Source: Octopus vulgaris (lineage: Eukaryota). Taken from it: a stretch of 64,000 nt of DNA. This document shows, one piece after another, positions 12,515 to 63,125 of this stretch (the first letter of the stretch is position 1; each line of letters starts with the position of its first letter). A program made the translations under genes and the position numbers. Location of the stretch: NCBI GenBank assembly GCA_951406725.2, contig OX597835.1:7750001-7814000 (forward strand), given 5' to 3'. Under the pieces are notes generated by a model that saw nothing but the letters and a program-made list of their open reading frames with translations, was not told the origin of the DNA and ran no database searches.

Positions 12515-12900
12515 TCTCTTTCTCTTTTACTCTTTTACTTGTTTCAGTCATTTGACTGCGGCCATGCTGGAGCACCGCCTTTCGTCGATCAAATCGACCC
12601 CGGGACTTATTCTTTGTAAGCCCAGTACTTATTCTATCGGTCTTTTTTGCCGAACCGCTAAGTGACGGGGACGTAAACACACCAGCATCGGTTGTCAAGC
12701 AATGCTAGGGGGACAAACACAGACATACAAGCACACACACACACACATATATATATATACGACAGGCTTCTTTCAGTTTCCGTCTACCAAATTCATTCAC
12801 AAGGCATTGGTCGGCCCGGGGCTATAGCAGAAGACACTTGCCCAAGATGCCACACAGAGGGACTGAACCCGCAACCATGTGGTTGGTTAGCAAGCTACTT
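12515..12900 (-). mobile_element. SINE family B, nearly full length
   Basis: Matches the other family B copies. Confidence 0.85.
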
Positions 12901-12925
12901 GTCATGTTGTCTCGTAATTAGGGCT

Positions 12926-12979
12926 GGACCTACCACTGAAGAAGCGCAGTATTCTGAAATCACGTGATCTGGCAGTTCC
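12926..12979 (+). ncRNA. Minimal type I hammerhead ribozyme, canonical core
   Basis: ctacca-CTGAAGA-ag(cgcagtatt)ct-GAAA-tcacgtga-TC-tggcag; stem III is palindromic (ATCACGTGAT). Predicted AUC cleavage after 12969. Confidence 0.7.
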
Positions 12980-13035
12980 GATGCTCATACCAGACGGTTC
13001 TCGTCTGTTACGATACCCTCAATGCCATTTGGGAT

Positions 13036-13082
13036 TGATGGACACCGGGTGTTTCACCATTTTTTGTGGCTTGTCAACATGA
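13036..13082 (-). ncRNA. Hammerhead ribozyme with a U3:A8 variant core, antisense copy
   Basis: - strand reads atg-TTGACAA-gcca(caaaaaa)tggt-GAAA-cacccggt-GTC-cat. Confidence 0.6.
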
Positions 13083-13334
13083 GTAACCCGCCGGCGATAT
13101 CTAAGGGTATATATCCTGCTATGCTATTGGAGCCACCGGAAAATACACAAAACATATGCATTCATTAAATGTATGTAGTTACTAATATTTATTATACCAG
13201 AGATGCTTTTATTTCATATCTAAATATTCCCTGGGATATTCAATTTCAGGCCATGCCAGCTCGTGATTTTACAAGCCATGAGCATAAAAGTCGTGGACTG
13301 GTTAGGCGATTTGCCTTCAACCCTGGCGAGTACG

Positions 13335-13380
13335 TGATGTTGACAAGCCACAGCAATGGTGAAACACCCGGTGTCCATCA
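13335..13380 (+). ncRNA. Hammerhead ribozyme with a U3:A8 variant core
   Basis: tgatg-TTGACAA-gcca(cagcaa)tggt-GAAA-cacccggt-GTC-catca: 5-bp stem I, 4-bp stem II, near-palindromic stem III. Predicted GUC cleavage after 13375. Confidence 0.7.
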
Positions 13381-13475
13381 CTCTCGACTGGGATTCAGGG
13401 TGAGTTATCACCCCTGCCCATGGTCCTGTGGTGTTTTAACAATGTACAAAGCATATGCATTAAGTATATGTAGTT

Positions 13476-13625: not shown

Positions 13626-13683
<58 letters not shown>
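13477..13683. repeat. (TAA/TGA)n microsatellite, 5' flank of the Dong-like element
   Basis: Simple repeat visible in the sequence. Confidence 0.95.
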
Positions 13684-14894
<1,211 letters not shown>

Positions 14895-18648: not shown

Positions 18649-18712
18649 GTATATATAAGAAATTAAAAAAGGAAAATACGCACACTTACATAGTTTTAAT
18701 ATAATGTTTAAT

Positions 18713-18746
18713 ATATCGACCGGTTTCGCTATCGTTATTCATGATA
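18713..18746 (-). ncRNA. Hammerhead-like motif with an A3:U8 variant core (Penelope terminal-repeat remnant)
   Basis: - strand reads atatc-ATGAATA-ac(gata)gc-GAAA-ccg-GTC-gatat; the flank is homologous to 43285-43340. Stem II has one mismatch. Confidence 0.55.
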
Positions 18747-18879
18747 TTATGTTTTACTTATTTGAATATATATATTTTCTTAAAAAGAAATTTGGTCCAT
18801 GTTGTGTGTGATGAAATTCATATATATATATATATATATATATGATTCGTTTTTGCTTTGCAGTGCTTCTTCCCTGTTC

Positions 18880-20703: not shown

Positions 20704-20763
20704 AATAAGACACCGAGTTTCGGATGTCGGGCAGAAATCTTCTCCGGCATCTCGTCAGTTATC
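20704..20763 (-). ncRNA. Type I hammerhead-like motif with an extended stem II (partly degenerate)
   Basis: - strand reads gataa-CTGACGA-gatgccgg(...)ccgacatc-c-GAAA-ctcggt-GTC-ttatt. Confidence 0.5.
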
Positions 20764-21283
20764 AAAGGAATCAAAAAATGCTATGAAAATGACCGTTAAA
20801 TAAGGGGAAAAACCCGAAGGAGATAAAGTAAAATAGTAAAAAAGTAAAAGTGCTCATAGAAATCGCGTATGCGTGCGTATACAGACATACACATGCGTAC
20901 ACGCACATCCACGTACATATGCATATATGCATATGCTCATTCACACTCACGTGTAACACATACATACACAATCACACATACGCCTATATATGCACATACA
21001 TATGCAACCATACATGTACACATATACATATCCGCATAATGTATATGTGGTGAAGCAATTAACTGAACCCTAATTATAATTGTTTATAATTATAGAATAT
21101 TTGTATAATTTTACCTATAGAGGTTATTTTTATGTACCGATTTATTTGGTACAATTATTAATTAATTGATTGATTAATTAATTTAATTTTACTCTTTTAT
21201 GATATATATATATATACATACATACAGAGAGAGAGAGAGAAAGAGAATAAACAGAGAGTGAATATATATAGTTATAACGTATG

Positions 21284-42040: not shown

Positions 42041-43247
42041 TCGATCCTACTGCATGTCGAGCAAAGCTTTGTTGTCATACCCTGGGTTGTGAGTGAAAAT
42101 GTTACTTGGAATTAACTTGCATTATGTTTGTTGTTACTATCTTTCAACCCCAGGTCAGGACTGACTGAATTCATTTACGATCAATGTCATTTCAATGAGA
42201 TCCTACCGTATTTTTCTATATAACGAATAATATTGTCTAACCCGTACTTCCTTTTAAGACAATGGTGTGATTTGAGGAAAATTAGACTCCTTATTTCTAG
42301 TATATCGAGCATTCGCCTAGAACAGAGGTTCTTGTAGCGTTTTTTATGAACGAACTTTGTCACGCACTCCAGGTTTTTGAAATGACTGGCAACTCACCAA
42401 ACTAATTTTATTATTACAGGTAGCTAGCAAAAGGCCCGATGGGAATATTAGTCAGAATATATCAGTGAAAAACAATGAGAATTCTTCATCTTGGAAATTC
42501 AGACAAAATCGATTTTGAACAGCGTCTGTGTACCGTTCTTCCTTCAATCTGTCGCGCTCGCTAGGTCACTCGGTTATACAAGGCATAAACACTCGCGCGC
42601 GCGTACACACACACATACGTATCCACGCGCGTTCGCACGCGCACACGTGCGTGCACGCACAGACACATGCATACGTACATATCTCGTAACCTAGAGAGCG
42701 ACGTTAGCGTTGACAAGAAGCGTAGCCTCTCCTGGACCTGCGATAGATACATTACATCCCACCTAGAAGGACATGCTTTCGTTATCCAGGAACAGGAACT
42801 ACTAAATACTTGATGAACAAGGACAAAGATACCACCAAACCGCCACGTTATGATAAAAAATGTCGAGTCTGCTATACTAGTGGGGAACCTAATTTATGTA
42901 ATAGCCTGCTCGGGTTGGAGTCATCAGTACATTGGACAAACGAGTTTAATTTTGAGGAAGAGAATCACTCTGCATAAGGAGCAAATCCGTTTCCCGCATT
43001 ACAGACAAATTCCTCTTAGTGAACACATAGAAAAATGTGCAGGTAACATCAAACCAAATTTTACAGTCTTCCCTTTCTACCAGTGCAAAGACACAATCTC
43101 TCAACTAGAACGCTTAAATAAAGAAACTTTTTTTAATTGAAAAATACAAAACGCGTCTTAATAAGCACGCATAACCAATTTTTATATTTTTACATATTAC
43201 ATCACTGTACATAAATCCCCTACTAAACAAGCATATAAATTAAACAT

Positions 43248-43284
43248 TGTATCATGAATAGCGATTGCGAAACCGGTCGACACA
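43248..43284 (+). ncRNA. Minimal hammerhead with an A3:U8 variant core
   Basis: tgtatc-ATGAATA-gc(gatt)gc-GAAA-ccg-GTC-gacaca; stem III is palindromic (ACCGGT). It lies about 110 nt after the GIY-YIG ORF. Confidence 0.65.
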
Positions 43285-43468
43285 TTAAAAATTATACTAT
43301 AACCATGTAACTGTGCGTATGTTCCGTTTTTATTTTCTTATATTGTCTCGAATTAATATTATATATATATATATATATAAGTATATATATAAAAAATGTC
43401 ACCGCGTGGGTACCGTTGGCGATTTTTTTCCTCTGTCTTCCCTTCTCTGGATCTTTCCTTCTCCAATG

Positions 43469-43501
43469 TTTCCGACGAAGAGCTCCGTTCGAAACGTTAA
43501 A
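43469..43501 (+). ncRNA. Degenerate minimal hammerhead-like motif (CCGACGA core, extra A)
   Basis: ttt-CCGACGA-a-gagc(tcc)gttc-GAAA-cg-TT-aaa. Confidence 0.4.
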
Positions 43502-43602
43502 CCCTCCTTCTTTCCTTCTTTCCTGACCGTCTCCAATAATACTATATTTGTTCCACGTCCTCGCGTTGTTGTGTTTTTTTGTGCTTTCATGTTTGGATTA
43601 AC

Positions 43603-47274: not shown

Positions 47275-47458
47275 CGCCATGATAGATCGTTAGCCACAAC
47301 ACACATTCTTTTCTCTCCTTGTTTTTTTCTGTGTCCCTTTCTGTAGAAGAGCGTAGGCTCGAAACGTAAAAGACTTTTTCTATTCCTGAGCGTTATACTA
47401 ATACATCTGTTTGTTTTGTACACCACCTGTCTTCGTCTTTTGTTTTTTTCGTAAACTC

Positions 47459-61532: not shown

Positions 61533-63125
61533 ATGGTCGTGCAAAAGTTTTCGGTCACCTTCCTTAAACCAATCAAGATACTGTGTTTTAAAATAGAAAA
61601 ATGTCCAAAATGAAAATTTATTACATAATGTTCATTTCTAGAAATTACTGTACATCATTGATATTTCGTGTGGCTTCCCTTAGCGTAAATAATTGCTTCA
61701 ATGCACCTGGGAAGAGATGTATGCAAACCCTTCACCATCTTCACAGGTATGAGATGCCATTCTCTGTGGCTGAGCTCCCACAACTCTTCAAGTTTGGGTG
61801 GATTCTTCTGACGGAACTCTTCTCTTTAGTTCTGTCCACATTTACTCGATGATATTTAAGTCAGGTCTCTGAGCTGCCCAATTTTTAATACGGTAACAGA
61901 CTCTATTGTGTGATCTGTGAAACGGAGCTCCATCTTGCGGAAAATTCTCACCTTCATCCAAGTCTGGTATCAAAGGTGTTCGTCAACAACAGAATGTATT
62001 TGGCACTCATCAAGTTACCGTCGATTTTTACCAACTTTCTAGAAACATCACTTTTTATGTATCTCCAAACATCAGACTCTTACCCCAAACGTCACTGTTT
62101 TCGTCGTGTAATTACCGTCGATTTTTACCAACTTTCTAGAAACATCACTTTTTATGTATCTCCAAACATCAGACTCTTACCCCAAACGTCACTGTTTTCG
62201 TCGTGTAATTACCGTCGATTTTTACCAACTTTCTAGAAACATCACTTTTTATGTATCTCCAAACATCAGACTCTTACCCCAAACGTCACTGTTTTCGTCG
62301 TGTAATTACCGTCGATTTTTACCAACTTTCTAGAAACATCACTTTTTATGTATCTCCAAACATCAGACTCTTACCCCAAACGTCACTGTTTTCGTCGTGT
62401 AATTACCGTCGATTTTTACCAACTTTCTAGAAACATCACTTTTTATGTATCTCCAAACATCAGACTCTTACCCCAAACGTCACTGTTTTCGTCGTGTAAT
62501 TACCGTCGATTTTTACCAACTTTCTAGAAACATCACTTTTTATGTATCTCCAAACATCAGACTCTTACCCCAAACGTCACTGTTTTCGTCGTGTAATTAC
62601 CGTCGATTTTTACCAACTTTCTAGAAACATCACTTTTTATGTATCTCCAAACATCAGACTCTTACCCCAAACGTCACTGTTTTCGTCGTGTAATTACCGT
62701 CGATTTTTACCAACTTTCTAGAAACATCACTTTTTATGTATCTCCAAACATCAGACTCTTACCCCAAACGTCACTGTTTTCGTCGTGTAATTACCGTCGA
62801 TTTTTACCAACTTTCTAGAAACATCACTTTTTATGTATCTCCAAACATCAGACTCTTACCCCAAACGTCACTGTTTTCGTCGTGTAATTACCGTCGATTT
62901 TTACCAACTTTCTAGAAACATCACTTTTTATGTATCTCCAAACATCAGACTCTTACCCCAAACGTCACTGTTTTCGTCGTGTAATTACCGTCGATTTTTA
63001 CCAACTTTCTAGAAACATCACTTTTTATGTATCTCTAAACATCAGACTCTTACCCCCCACTGTTTTCGTCGTGTAACGCGGGTCGGCTCCCTTTCCTGGA
63101 GGCCTTCTGACAAATTCTTGATTAT
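61533..63125 (-). mobile_element. Decayed Tc1-like transposon (DDE region and 3' end) containing a tandem array
   Basis: - strand reads EFVRRPPGKGADPRYTTKTVGGKSLM...KLVKIDGNL.SAKYILLL...FPQDGAPFHRS...WAAQRPDLNIIE.MWTELKRRV...WHLIP...SLPRCIEAIIYAKGSHTKY; TIR-like GTGCAAAAGTTT at about 61539. Confidence 0.85.
62015..63076. repeat. Tandem array, 11 x 97 bp, derived from Tc1 transposase coding sequence
   Basis: Units start every 97 nt from 62015 to 62985; the first ten look identical by eye and the eleventh is a variant. Confidence 0.95.

What the first reader, a model, noticed from the sequence alone, without database searches (positions are those of the whole stretch)
43248..43284. A3:U8 hammerhead (AUGAAUA) directly downstream of a Penelope GIY-YIG ORF
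Seen: tgtatc-AUGAAUA-gc(gatt)gc-GAAA-ccg-GUC-gacaca, about 110 nt after the endonuclease ORF. The same core recurs in a diverged homologous repeat at 18713-18746, so it is a family trait. Inference: together with the C3:G8 and U3:A8 motifs, three different 3-8 pairings coexist in 64 kb, which suggests unusual ribozyme-core diversification among these Penelope families.
Basis: partly seen in the sequence, partly recalled or inferred. Interest (0 to 1): 0.7.

Follow-up and report, generated by a model that had tools for sequence, protein, structure and literature searches.

The report
Penelope hammerhead with rare A-U core
A family of Penelope-like jumping genes carries, just behind its endonuclease gene, a small hammerhead RNA motif whose core base pair is A-U where related elements have C-G, so the family likely kept it working as a self-cutting RNA, although cutting is untested.

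Summary
Observation confirmed. 43248-43284 is a minimal type I hammerhead motif (core AUGAAUA, 2-bp stem II, palindromic ACCGGU helix III, predicted cut 43278|43279). It sits in the 3' pLTR of a 5'-truncated Penelope-like element (GIY-YIG E 2.6e-6), with a second copy at 18712-18748 (-). Of 17 related loci from metagenomes, 13 carry the motif at the same place with the same or near-same helix III: 12 with C3:G8, none with A3:U8. The window's core is thus a double transversion that keeps the 3:8 pair. A model built from the relatives alone ranks the two A3:U8 sites first in the window. Contigs of 4 public runs indicate A3:U8 is the family's majority state, not a private mutation. Likely mechanism: slow, dimer- or protein-assisted self-cleavage of pLTR RNA; this copy is decayed. 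Natural U3:A8 is published; I found no natural A3:U8 in print but could not read Lünse 2017, and this scan noted A3:U8 once before in a phage hammerhead. Three pairings in 64 kb are real but belong to unrelated repeats. Activity is untested, and one mutational scan found that only the G:C swap rescues. New variant of a known kind.

The parts
42886..43174 (+). Decayed C-terminal GIY-YIG endonuclease coding region of a 5'-truncated Penelope-like element, frameshifted in the T run near 43128; original stop inferred at 43172-43174
   Evidence: Pfam GIY-YIG E 2.6e-6, above cut-off; 61% identical to P0001 over 83 aa, with the last 14 aa in another frame; a 1-nt deletion at 43128 in 39-51% of laid depth
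43175..43345 (+). 3' UTR / pLTR part of the element, ending before a (TA)n run
   Evidence: Homology with 18653-18764 ends at 43343; laid depth falls to 50.8/16.4/3.7/0 in bin 43341-43371
43248..43253 (+). Stem I, 5' strand
   Evidence: Pairs with 43279-43284, 5 of 6; 43249G:43283C is A:U in the second copy
43254..43260 (+). Core strand A3 U4 G5 A6 A7 U8 A9; A3:U8 replaces C3:G8; A3-U4-G5 also reads AUG
   Evidence: aligned with C3:G8 homologs, pair types CG 10, AU 2, unpaired 1
43261..43268 (+). Stem II, 2 bp with a 4-nt loop (GAUU here, GAUA in 53-83% of laid depth)
   Evidence: homolog L014 has an equally short 8-nt stem-loop
43269..43278 (+). G12 A13 A14, palindromic helix III A15.1-CCGG-U16.1 (43272-43277) and C17; predicted cut between 43278 and 43279
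   Evidence: helix III self-duplex -8.3 kcal/mol; cut site inferred from hammerhead numbering
43279..43284 (+). Stem I, 3' strand (gacaca; the family majority reads T at 43281 and 43283)
   Evidence: 43281 C>T 93-100%, 43283 C>T 75-89% of depth in 4 runs
43307..43312 (+). Splice-donor-like hexamer (GTAACT here, GTAAGT in the family) that holds the stop of the 18-codon frame opened by the core AUG; role unknown
   Evidence: 43311 C>G in 99-100% of depth; absent from 13 of 13 homolog tails within 120 nt
43360..43392 (.). (TA)n run bounding the element
   Evidence: homologs L012, L013 and L020 also end in (TA)n 78-120 nt after the cut site
18653..18764 (-). Second, shorter 3' stub of the same family with the same A3:U8 core (A3 18742, C17 18718); stem I 5 bp, G10.1 lost
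   Evidence: best hit of model R1, 25.8 bits

Best explanation
This is the pLTR hammerhead motif of a Penelope-like retrotransposon family in which the core 3:8 pair is A:U instead of the C:G found in related elements, and it likely works as a slow self-cleaving ribozyme that needs a second copy or the element's protein. Shown: the position behind the GIY-YIG gene, homology to C3:G8 motifs of related elements, the double change and the conserved ACCGGU palindrome. Inferred: two motifs pair through ACCGGU to build a 6-bp helix III and each strand's core cuts the other after GUC17 (43278|43279). G12 would be the general base and the 2'-OH of nucleotide 8 the acid, so the base at 8 can change if the 3:8 pair still positions it. 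Cleavage would trim pLTR-containing tandem transcripts. The family's C17, where most relatives have U17, is predicted to matter, because U17 could pair with A3 and trap the core as G17 is thought to do with C3. This genomic copy is truncated and decayed and likely inert.
For: GIY-YIG domain directly upstream; relatives have RT, HTH and GIY-YIG domains of the Penelope type. Of 17 related loci, 3 end at the ORF and 1 (L022) is interrupted before the site; the other 13 (about 9 distinct families) carry the motif about 95-200 nt after the protein match: 12 C3:G8, 1 degenerate C3.A8, 0 A3:U8. Their endonucleases are only 41-54% identical to the window's, yet U4, G5, A6, A9, G12-A15.1 and U16.1 are invariant in the 13-row alignment. 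Pair counts: 83.7% of cells paired against 23-45% for slid controls; 4 of 5 stem I pairs and the 3:8 pair change on both sides. A model from 11 homolog sites only, with 3:8 unpaired, ranks the two A3:U8 sites first (25.8 and 19.4 bits; next 10.3). In 4 public runs no core position is among the 40 best-supported difference rows, while 43281 C>T repairs the stem I mismatch, and the motif's bin is a local depth peak in all 4. If two of 12 core positions changed at random, hitting 3 and 8 and staying Watson-Crick has odds of about 1 in 200 (my arithmetic: 1/66 x 1/3). C17 in both window copies, U17 in 13 of 15 homolog sites; the C3-G17 trap is from PMC3884650 passages. Dimer and protein assistance: PMC4209133, PMC6765202, PMC11167929. 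2'-OH of nucleotide 8 as acid: PMC6155905.
Against: No cleavage data. In a full pairwise scan of one type III hammerhead only the G:C swap rescued the C:G pair; all other doubles were of low activity (PMC9901934 passage). The predicted minimum-energy fold of this copy is another hairpin (z +0.5), and the active dimer lies 4-5 kcal/mol above the best dimer fold, though C3:G8 relatives also show gaps of 1.4-8.8. Between the two window copies the core differs at 0 of 12 positions and the rest at 15 of 82, which is not significant by itself. One search hid 130 of 170 difference rows, so core invariance within the family is not shown. The A:U change is one evolutionary event, however many copies carry it. 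Stems alone are weak: 5 of 120 chance matches of the core pattern in prokaryote genomes have an equally good stem I, and 1 of 80 outscores the 43254 copy. For an Anolis Penelope element cleavage was not needed for insertion in vitro, and no RNA ends were seen at the cut site.
Confidence: 0.68

Rival explanations
1. Catalytically dead or near-dead relic: the A3:U8 core does not cleave usefully. The motif is kept as a structural or protein-binding site (or by recent descent), and the family spread without cleavage.
For: A:U did not rescue in one hammerhead scan; 2-bp stem II and a competing hairpin; cleavage was dispensable in vitro for an Anolis element; Naiad elements spread without canonical hammerheads (PMC8557442 passages).
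Against: Both changes fall on the one core Watson-Crick pair and restore it, while the other 10 core positions match relatives whose proteins are only 41-54% identical. The 3:8 pair belongs to the active fold. Two-base-pair stems II are common in natural hammerheads (PMC3088659).
Confidence: 0.2
2. Dual use: A3 was fixed because A3-U4-G5 is a start codon for the downstream ORF of tandem copies (via an intron opening at the GTAAGT at 43307), U8 followed to keep the ribozyme, and cleavage 25 nt after the AUG would remove the start codon.
For: The AUG has A at -3, both window copies keep an open 18-codon frame, and its stop lies inside a donor-like GTAAGT that is the family state. In the Anolis element the ORF starts inside the hammerhead, 26 nt before the cut. 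Penelope pLTRs can hold introns.
Against: In 5 tandem homologs (L011, L014, L016, L019, L025) the next long ORF starts 111-122 nt after the cut site, and none of 13 has a GTRAG within 120 nt. Any A3 core makes an AUG. Most differences between the two copies in this frame change the residue (my reading). No joint at 43306 among the joints shown. No full-length copy of this family was available.
Confidence: 0.08
3. Chance resemblance in AT-rich repeat DNA.
For: No Rfam hammerhead match; the fold is not the predicted minimum; stem I of this quality occurs in 5 of 120 chance core matches.
Against: Same place, same 10-nt GAAACCGGUY block and covarying stems in related elements; top two hits of an independently built model.
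Confidence: 0.04

Closest known systems
Minimal type I hammerheads of metazoan Penelope-like elements, subtype with a small palindromic helix III (Cervera and De la Peña 2014, PMC4209133; parts 1-2 of 4 of the text and parts 1-2 of 3 of the supplement read)
   Same: In the 3' pLTR after a GIY-YIG ORF, sense strand, short helix I, palindromic helix III, GAAA and NUH kept, many 5'-truncated single copies
   Different: A3:U8 core. The Fig. S3 rows I read show C3:G8, U3:A8 (S. mansoni 3 and 4) and U3.G8 (Saccoglossus 1), none A3:U8. Helix II is 2 bp (there mostly 3-8) and there is no extra nucleotide after A9.
Natural U3:A8 core variants (Perreault et al. 2011, PMC3088659, part 3 of 8 and passages; S. 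mansoni Cercyon PLE variant, PMC4209133)
   Same: Compensatory change of both partners of the 3:8 pair in natural hammerheads
   Different: U3:A8 is two transitions with a U.G wobble on the way and keeps pyrimidine-3/purine-8. A3:U8 is two transversions, reverses the geometry, and has no paired single-step path from C:G (inference).
Short dimer-cleaving hammerheads of Penelope-like elements (Lünse, Weinberg and Breaker 2017; not held; seen only as a citation and through the review PMC6765202)
   Same: Diminished palindromic stem III; cleavage as dimers
   Different: Unknown whether A3:U8 is among their representatives; this is the main gap in the novelty claim.
PAc (Anolis Poseidon) hammerhead (Frangieh et al. 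2024, PMC11167929, passages)
   Same: Penelope pLTR hammerhead whose activity depends on the 3:8 pair (C3G/G8C partly rescues); cleaves only with the element's protein
   Different: C3:G8 in nature; Poseidon clade; start codon in stem II, not in the core

Membership tests
Hammerhead ribozyme (type I) | Core U4 G5 A6, A9, G12 A13 A14, A15.1:U16.1, H17 | tested here: met
   All present in both copies
Hammerhead ribozyme (type I) | Consensus letters C3 and G8 | tested here: not met
   A3 and U8; this is the variant
Hammerhead ribozyme (type I) | Watson-Crick pair between positions 3 and 8 | tested here: met
   A:U; column pair CG 10, AU 2, unpaired 1
Hammerhead ribozyme (type I) | Three helices around the core, supported by covariation | tested here: met
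   83.7% paired, 7 of 10 pairs with two-sided change, slid controls 23-45%; structure drawn from these sequences, stem II only 64% paired; helix III needs a partner
Hammerhead ribozyme (type I) | Match to an Rfam hammerhead model | tested here: not met
   No hammerhead family at E<=10 on 43180-43560; the typical minimal motif at 43472 in the same stretch is missed too
Hammerhead ribozyme (type I) | Site-specific self-cleavage after H17 | not testable with these tools
   Needs a bench assay; only contigs were available
Minimal PLE hammerhead (Cervera 2014) | Located in the pLTR, 3' of the ORF, sense strand | tested here: met
   About 80 nt after the inferred stop; in tandem homologs the next ORF starts 111-122 nt after the cut site
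Minimal PLE hammerhead (Cervera 2014) | Palindromic helix III / loop 3 | tested here: met
   ACCGGU, shared by 12 of 15 homolog sites exactly
Minimal PLE hammerhead (Cervera 2014) | G10.1:C11.1 pair | tested here: met
   G43261:C43268; lost in the 18742 copy
Minimal PLE hammerhead (Cervera 2014) | Extra nucleotide between 9 and 10.1 and a long helix II | tested here: not met
   No extra nucleotide, 2 bp; also so in homolog L014
Penelope-like element, C-terminal EN | GIY-YIG endonuclease at the C-terminus with CCHH motif | tested here: met
   PF01541; C and both H present, the second C reads W in this copy but 42918 G>C in 68-97% of depth gives C in the family
Penelope-like element, C-terminal EN | Telomerase-like RT upstream in the same ORF | tested here: inconclusive
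   Missing from this truncated copy; relatives carry PF00078 with PF26215 and PF01541
Neptune/Nematis-type PLE | CX2-5CxxC linker before the EN; (TA)n insertion bias | tested here: inconclusive
   Linker plus CxxC spacing in P0001-P0005 and in 73 of 120 relatives; not clearly kept in the window copy; (TA)n follows the 3' end; no RT tree was built

The most novel reading that the evidence does not exclude
The catalytic core of this animal retrotransposon ribozyme doubles as the start codon: A3-U4-G5 initiates the spliced ORF of tandem copies, U8 and C17 co-evolved to keep catalysis, and self-cleavage 25 nt downstream cuts the AUG off, switching the RNA from message to template. It would also be the first family-fixed natural purine-3/pyrimidine-8 A:U hammerhead core in animals, with a rewritten NUH rule (U17 forbidden).
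Probability: 0.08. Interest if true: 0.75.

Novelty: new variant of a known kind. Interest (0 to 1): 0.43.

Why it matters
Whether the tiny hammerheads of animal Penelope elements matter for the element is unsettled: they cut poorly in vitro, one element inserts without cleavage, and a sister clade lacks them. A family-fixed double transversion that keeps the active-site 3:8 pair, set against C3:G8 relatives with the same helix III, is sequence evidence that the active fold was under selection. It also gives a natural matched pair (A3:U8 with C17 against C3:G8 with U17) for testing how far the core tolerates purine-3/pyrimidine-8 and whether the NUH rule follows the base at position 3. In practice, CUGANGA-only descriptors and Rfam miss the whole family. 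It does not reveal a new kind of system.

Tried and rejected
No whole genome is held for this window, so no genome-wide family alignment could be built. Rfam found no hammerhead. A pattern scan of viral contigs gave 10 matches, 0 of 10 with a stem I of 3 or more pairs, read as chance. The protein scan of viral contigs gave 107 candidates and no relative. The scan of prokaryote genomes stopped at 120 matches and served only as a control. The 53-sequence alignment A2 was too diverse for the locus search; the 18-sequence A3 was used. No RNA holder is on record for the stretch; run X9 is only guessed to be RNA and contigs show no ends, so expression and cut site were left open. Considered: that the second motif at 43472 is part of the same element; rejected because depth falls to single-locus level at 43341-43371 and rises about 100-fold after 43403. 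Considered: dimerisation through stem II; this copy's 8-nt stem II sequence is self-complementary (-9.2 kcal/mol) but the 18742 copy (-0.5) and the short-stem homologs L013-L015 are not, so it was not adopted. Literature searches for natural A3:U8: 0 papers; 2 papers, 0 occurrences of a3u8 or a3-u8; 0; 2 unrelated; the supplement of PMC8557442 has no AUGAAUA and no matching element. Not held: Lünse 2017, Przybilski and Hammann 2007, Hammann 2012. bioRxiv supplements are closed; those of 10.64898/2026.07.22.740005 (part 1 of 5 read) could list such cores.

Full report
What is there. The + strand at 43248-43284 reads tgtatc ATGAATA gcgattgc GAAA ccgg TC gacaca. In hammerhead numbering this is stem I (43248-53 with 43279-84, 5 of 6 pairs), core A3 U4 G5 A6 A7 U8 A9 (43254-60), a 2-bp stem II with a 4-nt loop, G12 A13 A14, the palindrome ACCGGU (43272-77) and C17, with the predicted cut at 43278|43279. 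A second copy lies on the minus strand (A3 18742, C17 18718) in a 112-nt repeat 85% identical to 43232-43343. It has a clean 5-bp stem I, with A:U where this copy has G:C at 43249:43283, but has lost G10.1. The core pattern occurs twice in the window and never in 100 shuffles, a weak test because I wrote the pattern from the finding. Rfam does not detect the motif.

The host element. Upstream is a decayed GIY-YIG endonuclease (PF01541, E 2.6e-6), 61% identical over 83 aa to P0001. P0001's relatives carry RT, HTH and GIY-YIG domains, and the named ones come from molluscs, including Argonauta, Octopus and bivalves. A cephalopod host is my inference from this and from recalled genome composition; it was not tested. 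P0001-P0005 and 73 of 120 relatives have the CX2-5CxxC linker that PMC8557442 gives for Neptune and Nematis elements; no tree was built. This copy runs from about 42886 to 43345, is 5'-truncated and frameshifted near 43128, and ends before a (TA)n run. The original stop is about 43172-74, so the motif lies about 80 nt behind the gene rather than 110.

Positional homologs. A search of metagenome contigs with alignment A3 gave 17 related loci out of 223 candidate stretches. Three end at the ORF and L022 is interrupted before the site. The other 13, about 9 distinct families, carry a hammerhead motif about 95-200 nt behind the protein match: 12 with C3:G8, one degenerate (C3.A8), none with A3:U8. 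Counting two extra copies there are 15 sites; 12 have exactly GAAACCGGU. Stem II is as short as 5 nt (L013) or 8 nt with 2 pairs (L014), so the window's short stem II is normal for the clade. The endonucleases of these loci are 41-54% identical to the window's. I aligned 11 of the 15 sites (leaving out L018, L023+, L025 and the second L026 site as near-duplicates) with the two window copies. U4, G5, A6, A9, G12-A15.1 and U16.1 are invariant; 83.7% of cells pair, against 23-45% for slid controls; four of five stem I pairs change on both sides; the 3:8 columns read CG 10, AU 2, unpaired 1. The structure was drawn from these sequences, the count of pairs with two-sided change was reached by 73 of 500 shuffles, and the A:U change is a single event. 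A covariance model from the 11 homolog sites alone, with 3:8 left unpaired, ranks the two A3:U8 sites first in the window: 25.8 bits (E 8e-5) and 19.4 bits (E 0.005), next 10.3. As a control, 1 of 80 prokaryote sequences pre-selected for the same core pattern (80 of the 120 fetched) scored above 19.4 and none above 25.8; 5 of 120 had as good a stem I.

Family trait. Of 24 runs listed, I laid four (organisms A, C, D, A) on 42690-43600 at 80% likeness. The bin holding the motif is a local depth peak in all four (27492, 19517, 4359, 603, against 16133, 2323, 1087, 485 before and 8329, 9476, 2661, 246 after), while the junction bin 43341-43371 has 50.8, 16.4, 3.7 and 0; depth is not copy number. 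Among the 40 best-supported difference rows, three fall in the motif: 43266 T>A in loop II (53-83%), 43281 C>T (93-100%), which repairs this copy's stem I mismatch, and 43283 C>T (75-89%). None is a core position. Had A3 or U8 been private to this copy they should have appeared like 43281, so A3:U8 is likely the majority state in three labelled organisms. 130 rows were hidden, so invariance of the core is not shown. Between the two window copies the core differs at 0 of 12 positions and the rest at 15 of 82, suggestive only.

How it likely works. By the published model for these elements (PMC4209133; PMC6765202), a helix III this short cannot close in one molecule; two motifs pair through the palindrome (6 bp, -8.3 kcal/mol) and each core cuts the partner strand. 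G12 is the base and the 2'-OH of nucleotide 8 the acid (PMC6155905), so what matters at 8 is the pair with 3 that positions it. That any Watson-Crick pair can serve in some hammerheads is my recall of Przybilski and Hammann 2007 (not held); PMC3088659 says only that covarying nucleotides there had been shown active in vitro. If two of the 12 core positions had changed at random, the odds of hitting 3 and 8 and staying paired are about 1 in 200 (my arithmetic). Two further inferences: the family has C17 where 13 of 15 homolog sites have U17, which would avoid an A3-U17 pair like the C3-G17 trap proposed in PMC3884650, though C17 is common anyway; and no paired single-step path leads from C:G to A:U, so a mismatch stage may have been carried by cutting in trans from an intact partner. 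The cut would trim tandem pLTR transcripts; in five tandem homologs the next ORF begins 111-122 nt after the cut site.

Against. Nothing here shows cleavage. In a complete pairwise scan of one type III hammerhead only the G:C swap rescued the pair (PMC9901934). This copy's predicted best fold is another hairpin, and the active dimer lies 4.9 kcal/mol (4.1 for the second copy) above the best dimer, within the 1.4-8.8 range of the relatives. The Anolis PAc hammerhead cut only with protein, was dispensable for insertion in vitro, and left no RNA ends at its site (PMC11167929). A structural relic gets 0.2. A bolder rival (0.08) notes that A3-U4-G5 is an AUG with A at -3, opening 18 codons that stop inside a donor-like GTAAGT at 43307 (family state), much as PAc's start codon lies inside its hammerhead; but the homologs start their ORF downstream and have no such donor.

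C3:G8 (12936+, 20758-, 43472+ with U4C, 47341+ with A6U), U3:A8 (13340+) and A3:U8 motifs do coexist. They differ in helix III and share no BLAST homology with this family, and no Penelope ORF was found next to 12936, 13340 or 20758. C3:G8 with U3:A8 in one genome is published. The coexistence is ordinary for a repeat-rich genome; only A3:U8 stands out.

Novelty. Natural U3:A8 is in PMC3088659 and PMC4209133; the Fig. S3 rows of the latter show no A3:U8. Searches for a natural A3:U8 found nothing, but such labels are written in many ways and Lünse 2017, the largest survey of these motifs, could not be read. Earlier notes of this scan report U3:A8 and G3:C8 cases in other genomes and one A3:U8 in a phage type II hammerhead; I did not check those sequences. 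Papers seen: PMC4209133 (parts 1-2 of 4, supplement parts 1-2 of 3), PMC3088659 (part 3 of 8, passages), PMC6765202 (passages, half of section 11), 10.64898/2026.07.22.740005 (part 1 of 5), and passages of PMC8557442 (with a supplement search), PMC11167929, PMC9901934, PMC3884650, PMC6155905, PMC10085705 and PMC11014351. Verdict: a real, family-level core variant of a known kind of Penelope hammerhead, possibly unreported in animals, activity untested; interest 0.43.

Noticed in passing
window 43397-43600 (+), motif 43468-43502: A separate, very abundant repeat (laid depth 2-3 million in run X1, about 100 times that of the A3:U8 bin) holds a classic minimal hammerhead shape with a U4C core (C3 43472), extra A, 4-bp stem II and GAAACGUU. 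43488 T>C in 97-100% of depth turns a G.U into G:C, and C4 is not among the difference rows shown, so U4C may be a family trait. U4C is described as a low-activity natural variant in PMC3088659. May deserve its own look.
   Followed up: partly
window 47337-47372 (+): Minimal hammerhead shape of similar design with A6U (C3 47341), between microsatellites.
   Followed up: no
window 12900-13440: Cluster of hammerhead-like motifs: C3:G8 at 12936 (+) with a 10-nt palindromic helix III, U3:A8 at 13340 (+) with a 6-bp stem I, and an inverted 66-nt partial copy of the latter at 13015-13080. No Penelope ORF found nearby.
   Followed up: partly
window 20708-20764 (-): C3:G8 hammerhead-like motif with a long stem II, A of the core strand near 20758, next to microsatellites.
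   Followed up: no
window 13680-14660 (+): 3' fragment of a non-LTR retrotransposon between (TAA)n runs; zf-RVT match E 1.7e-5, below cut-off; a restriction-like endonuclease type is my recall from the PD..D..K-like motif.
   Followed up: no
window 42717-42882: Another repeat abuts the 5' end of the Penelope fragment; listed contigs cover it up to about 42882 and others start at 42885-42886. Identity unknown.
   Followed up: no
L013:1412-1433 and L023:2466-2489 (-): Hammerhead motifs with almost no stem II (5 and 7 nt between A9 and G12) but intact core and helix III palindrome.
   Followed up: no
L011, L014, L016, L019, L025, 111-122 nt after the cut site: Tandem copies start a long ORF (78-393 aa as far as held) with an N-terminal basic motif, showing the 5' end of this PLE clade.
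   Followed up: no
window 62015-63076: Tandem array of a 97-nt unit, about 11 copies, 93-99% identical.
   Followed up: no
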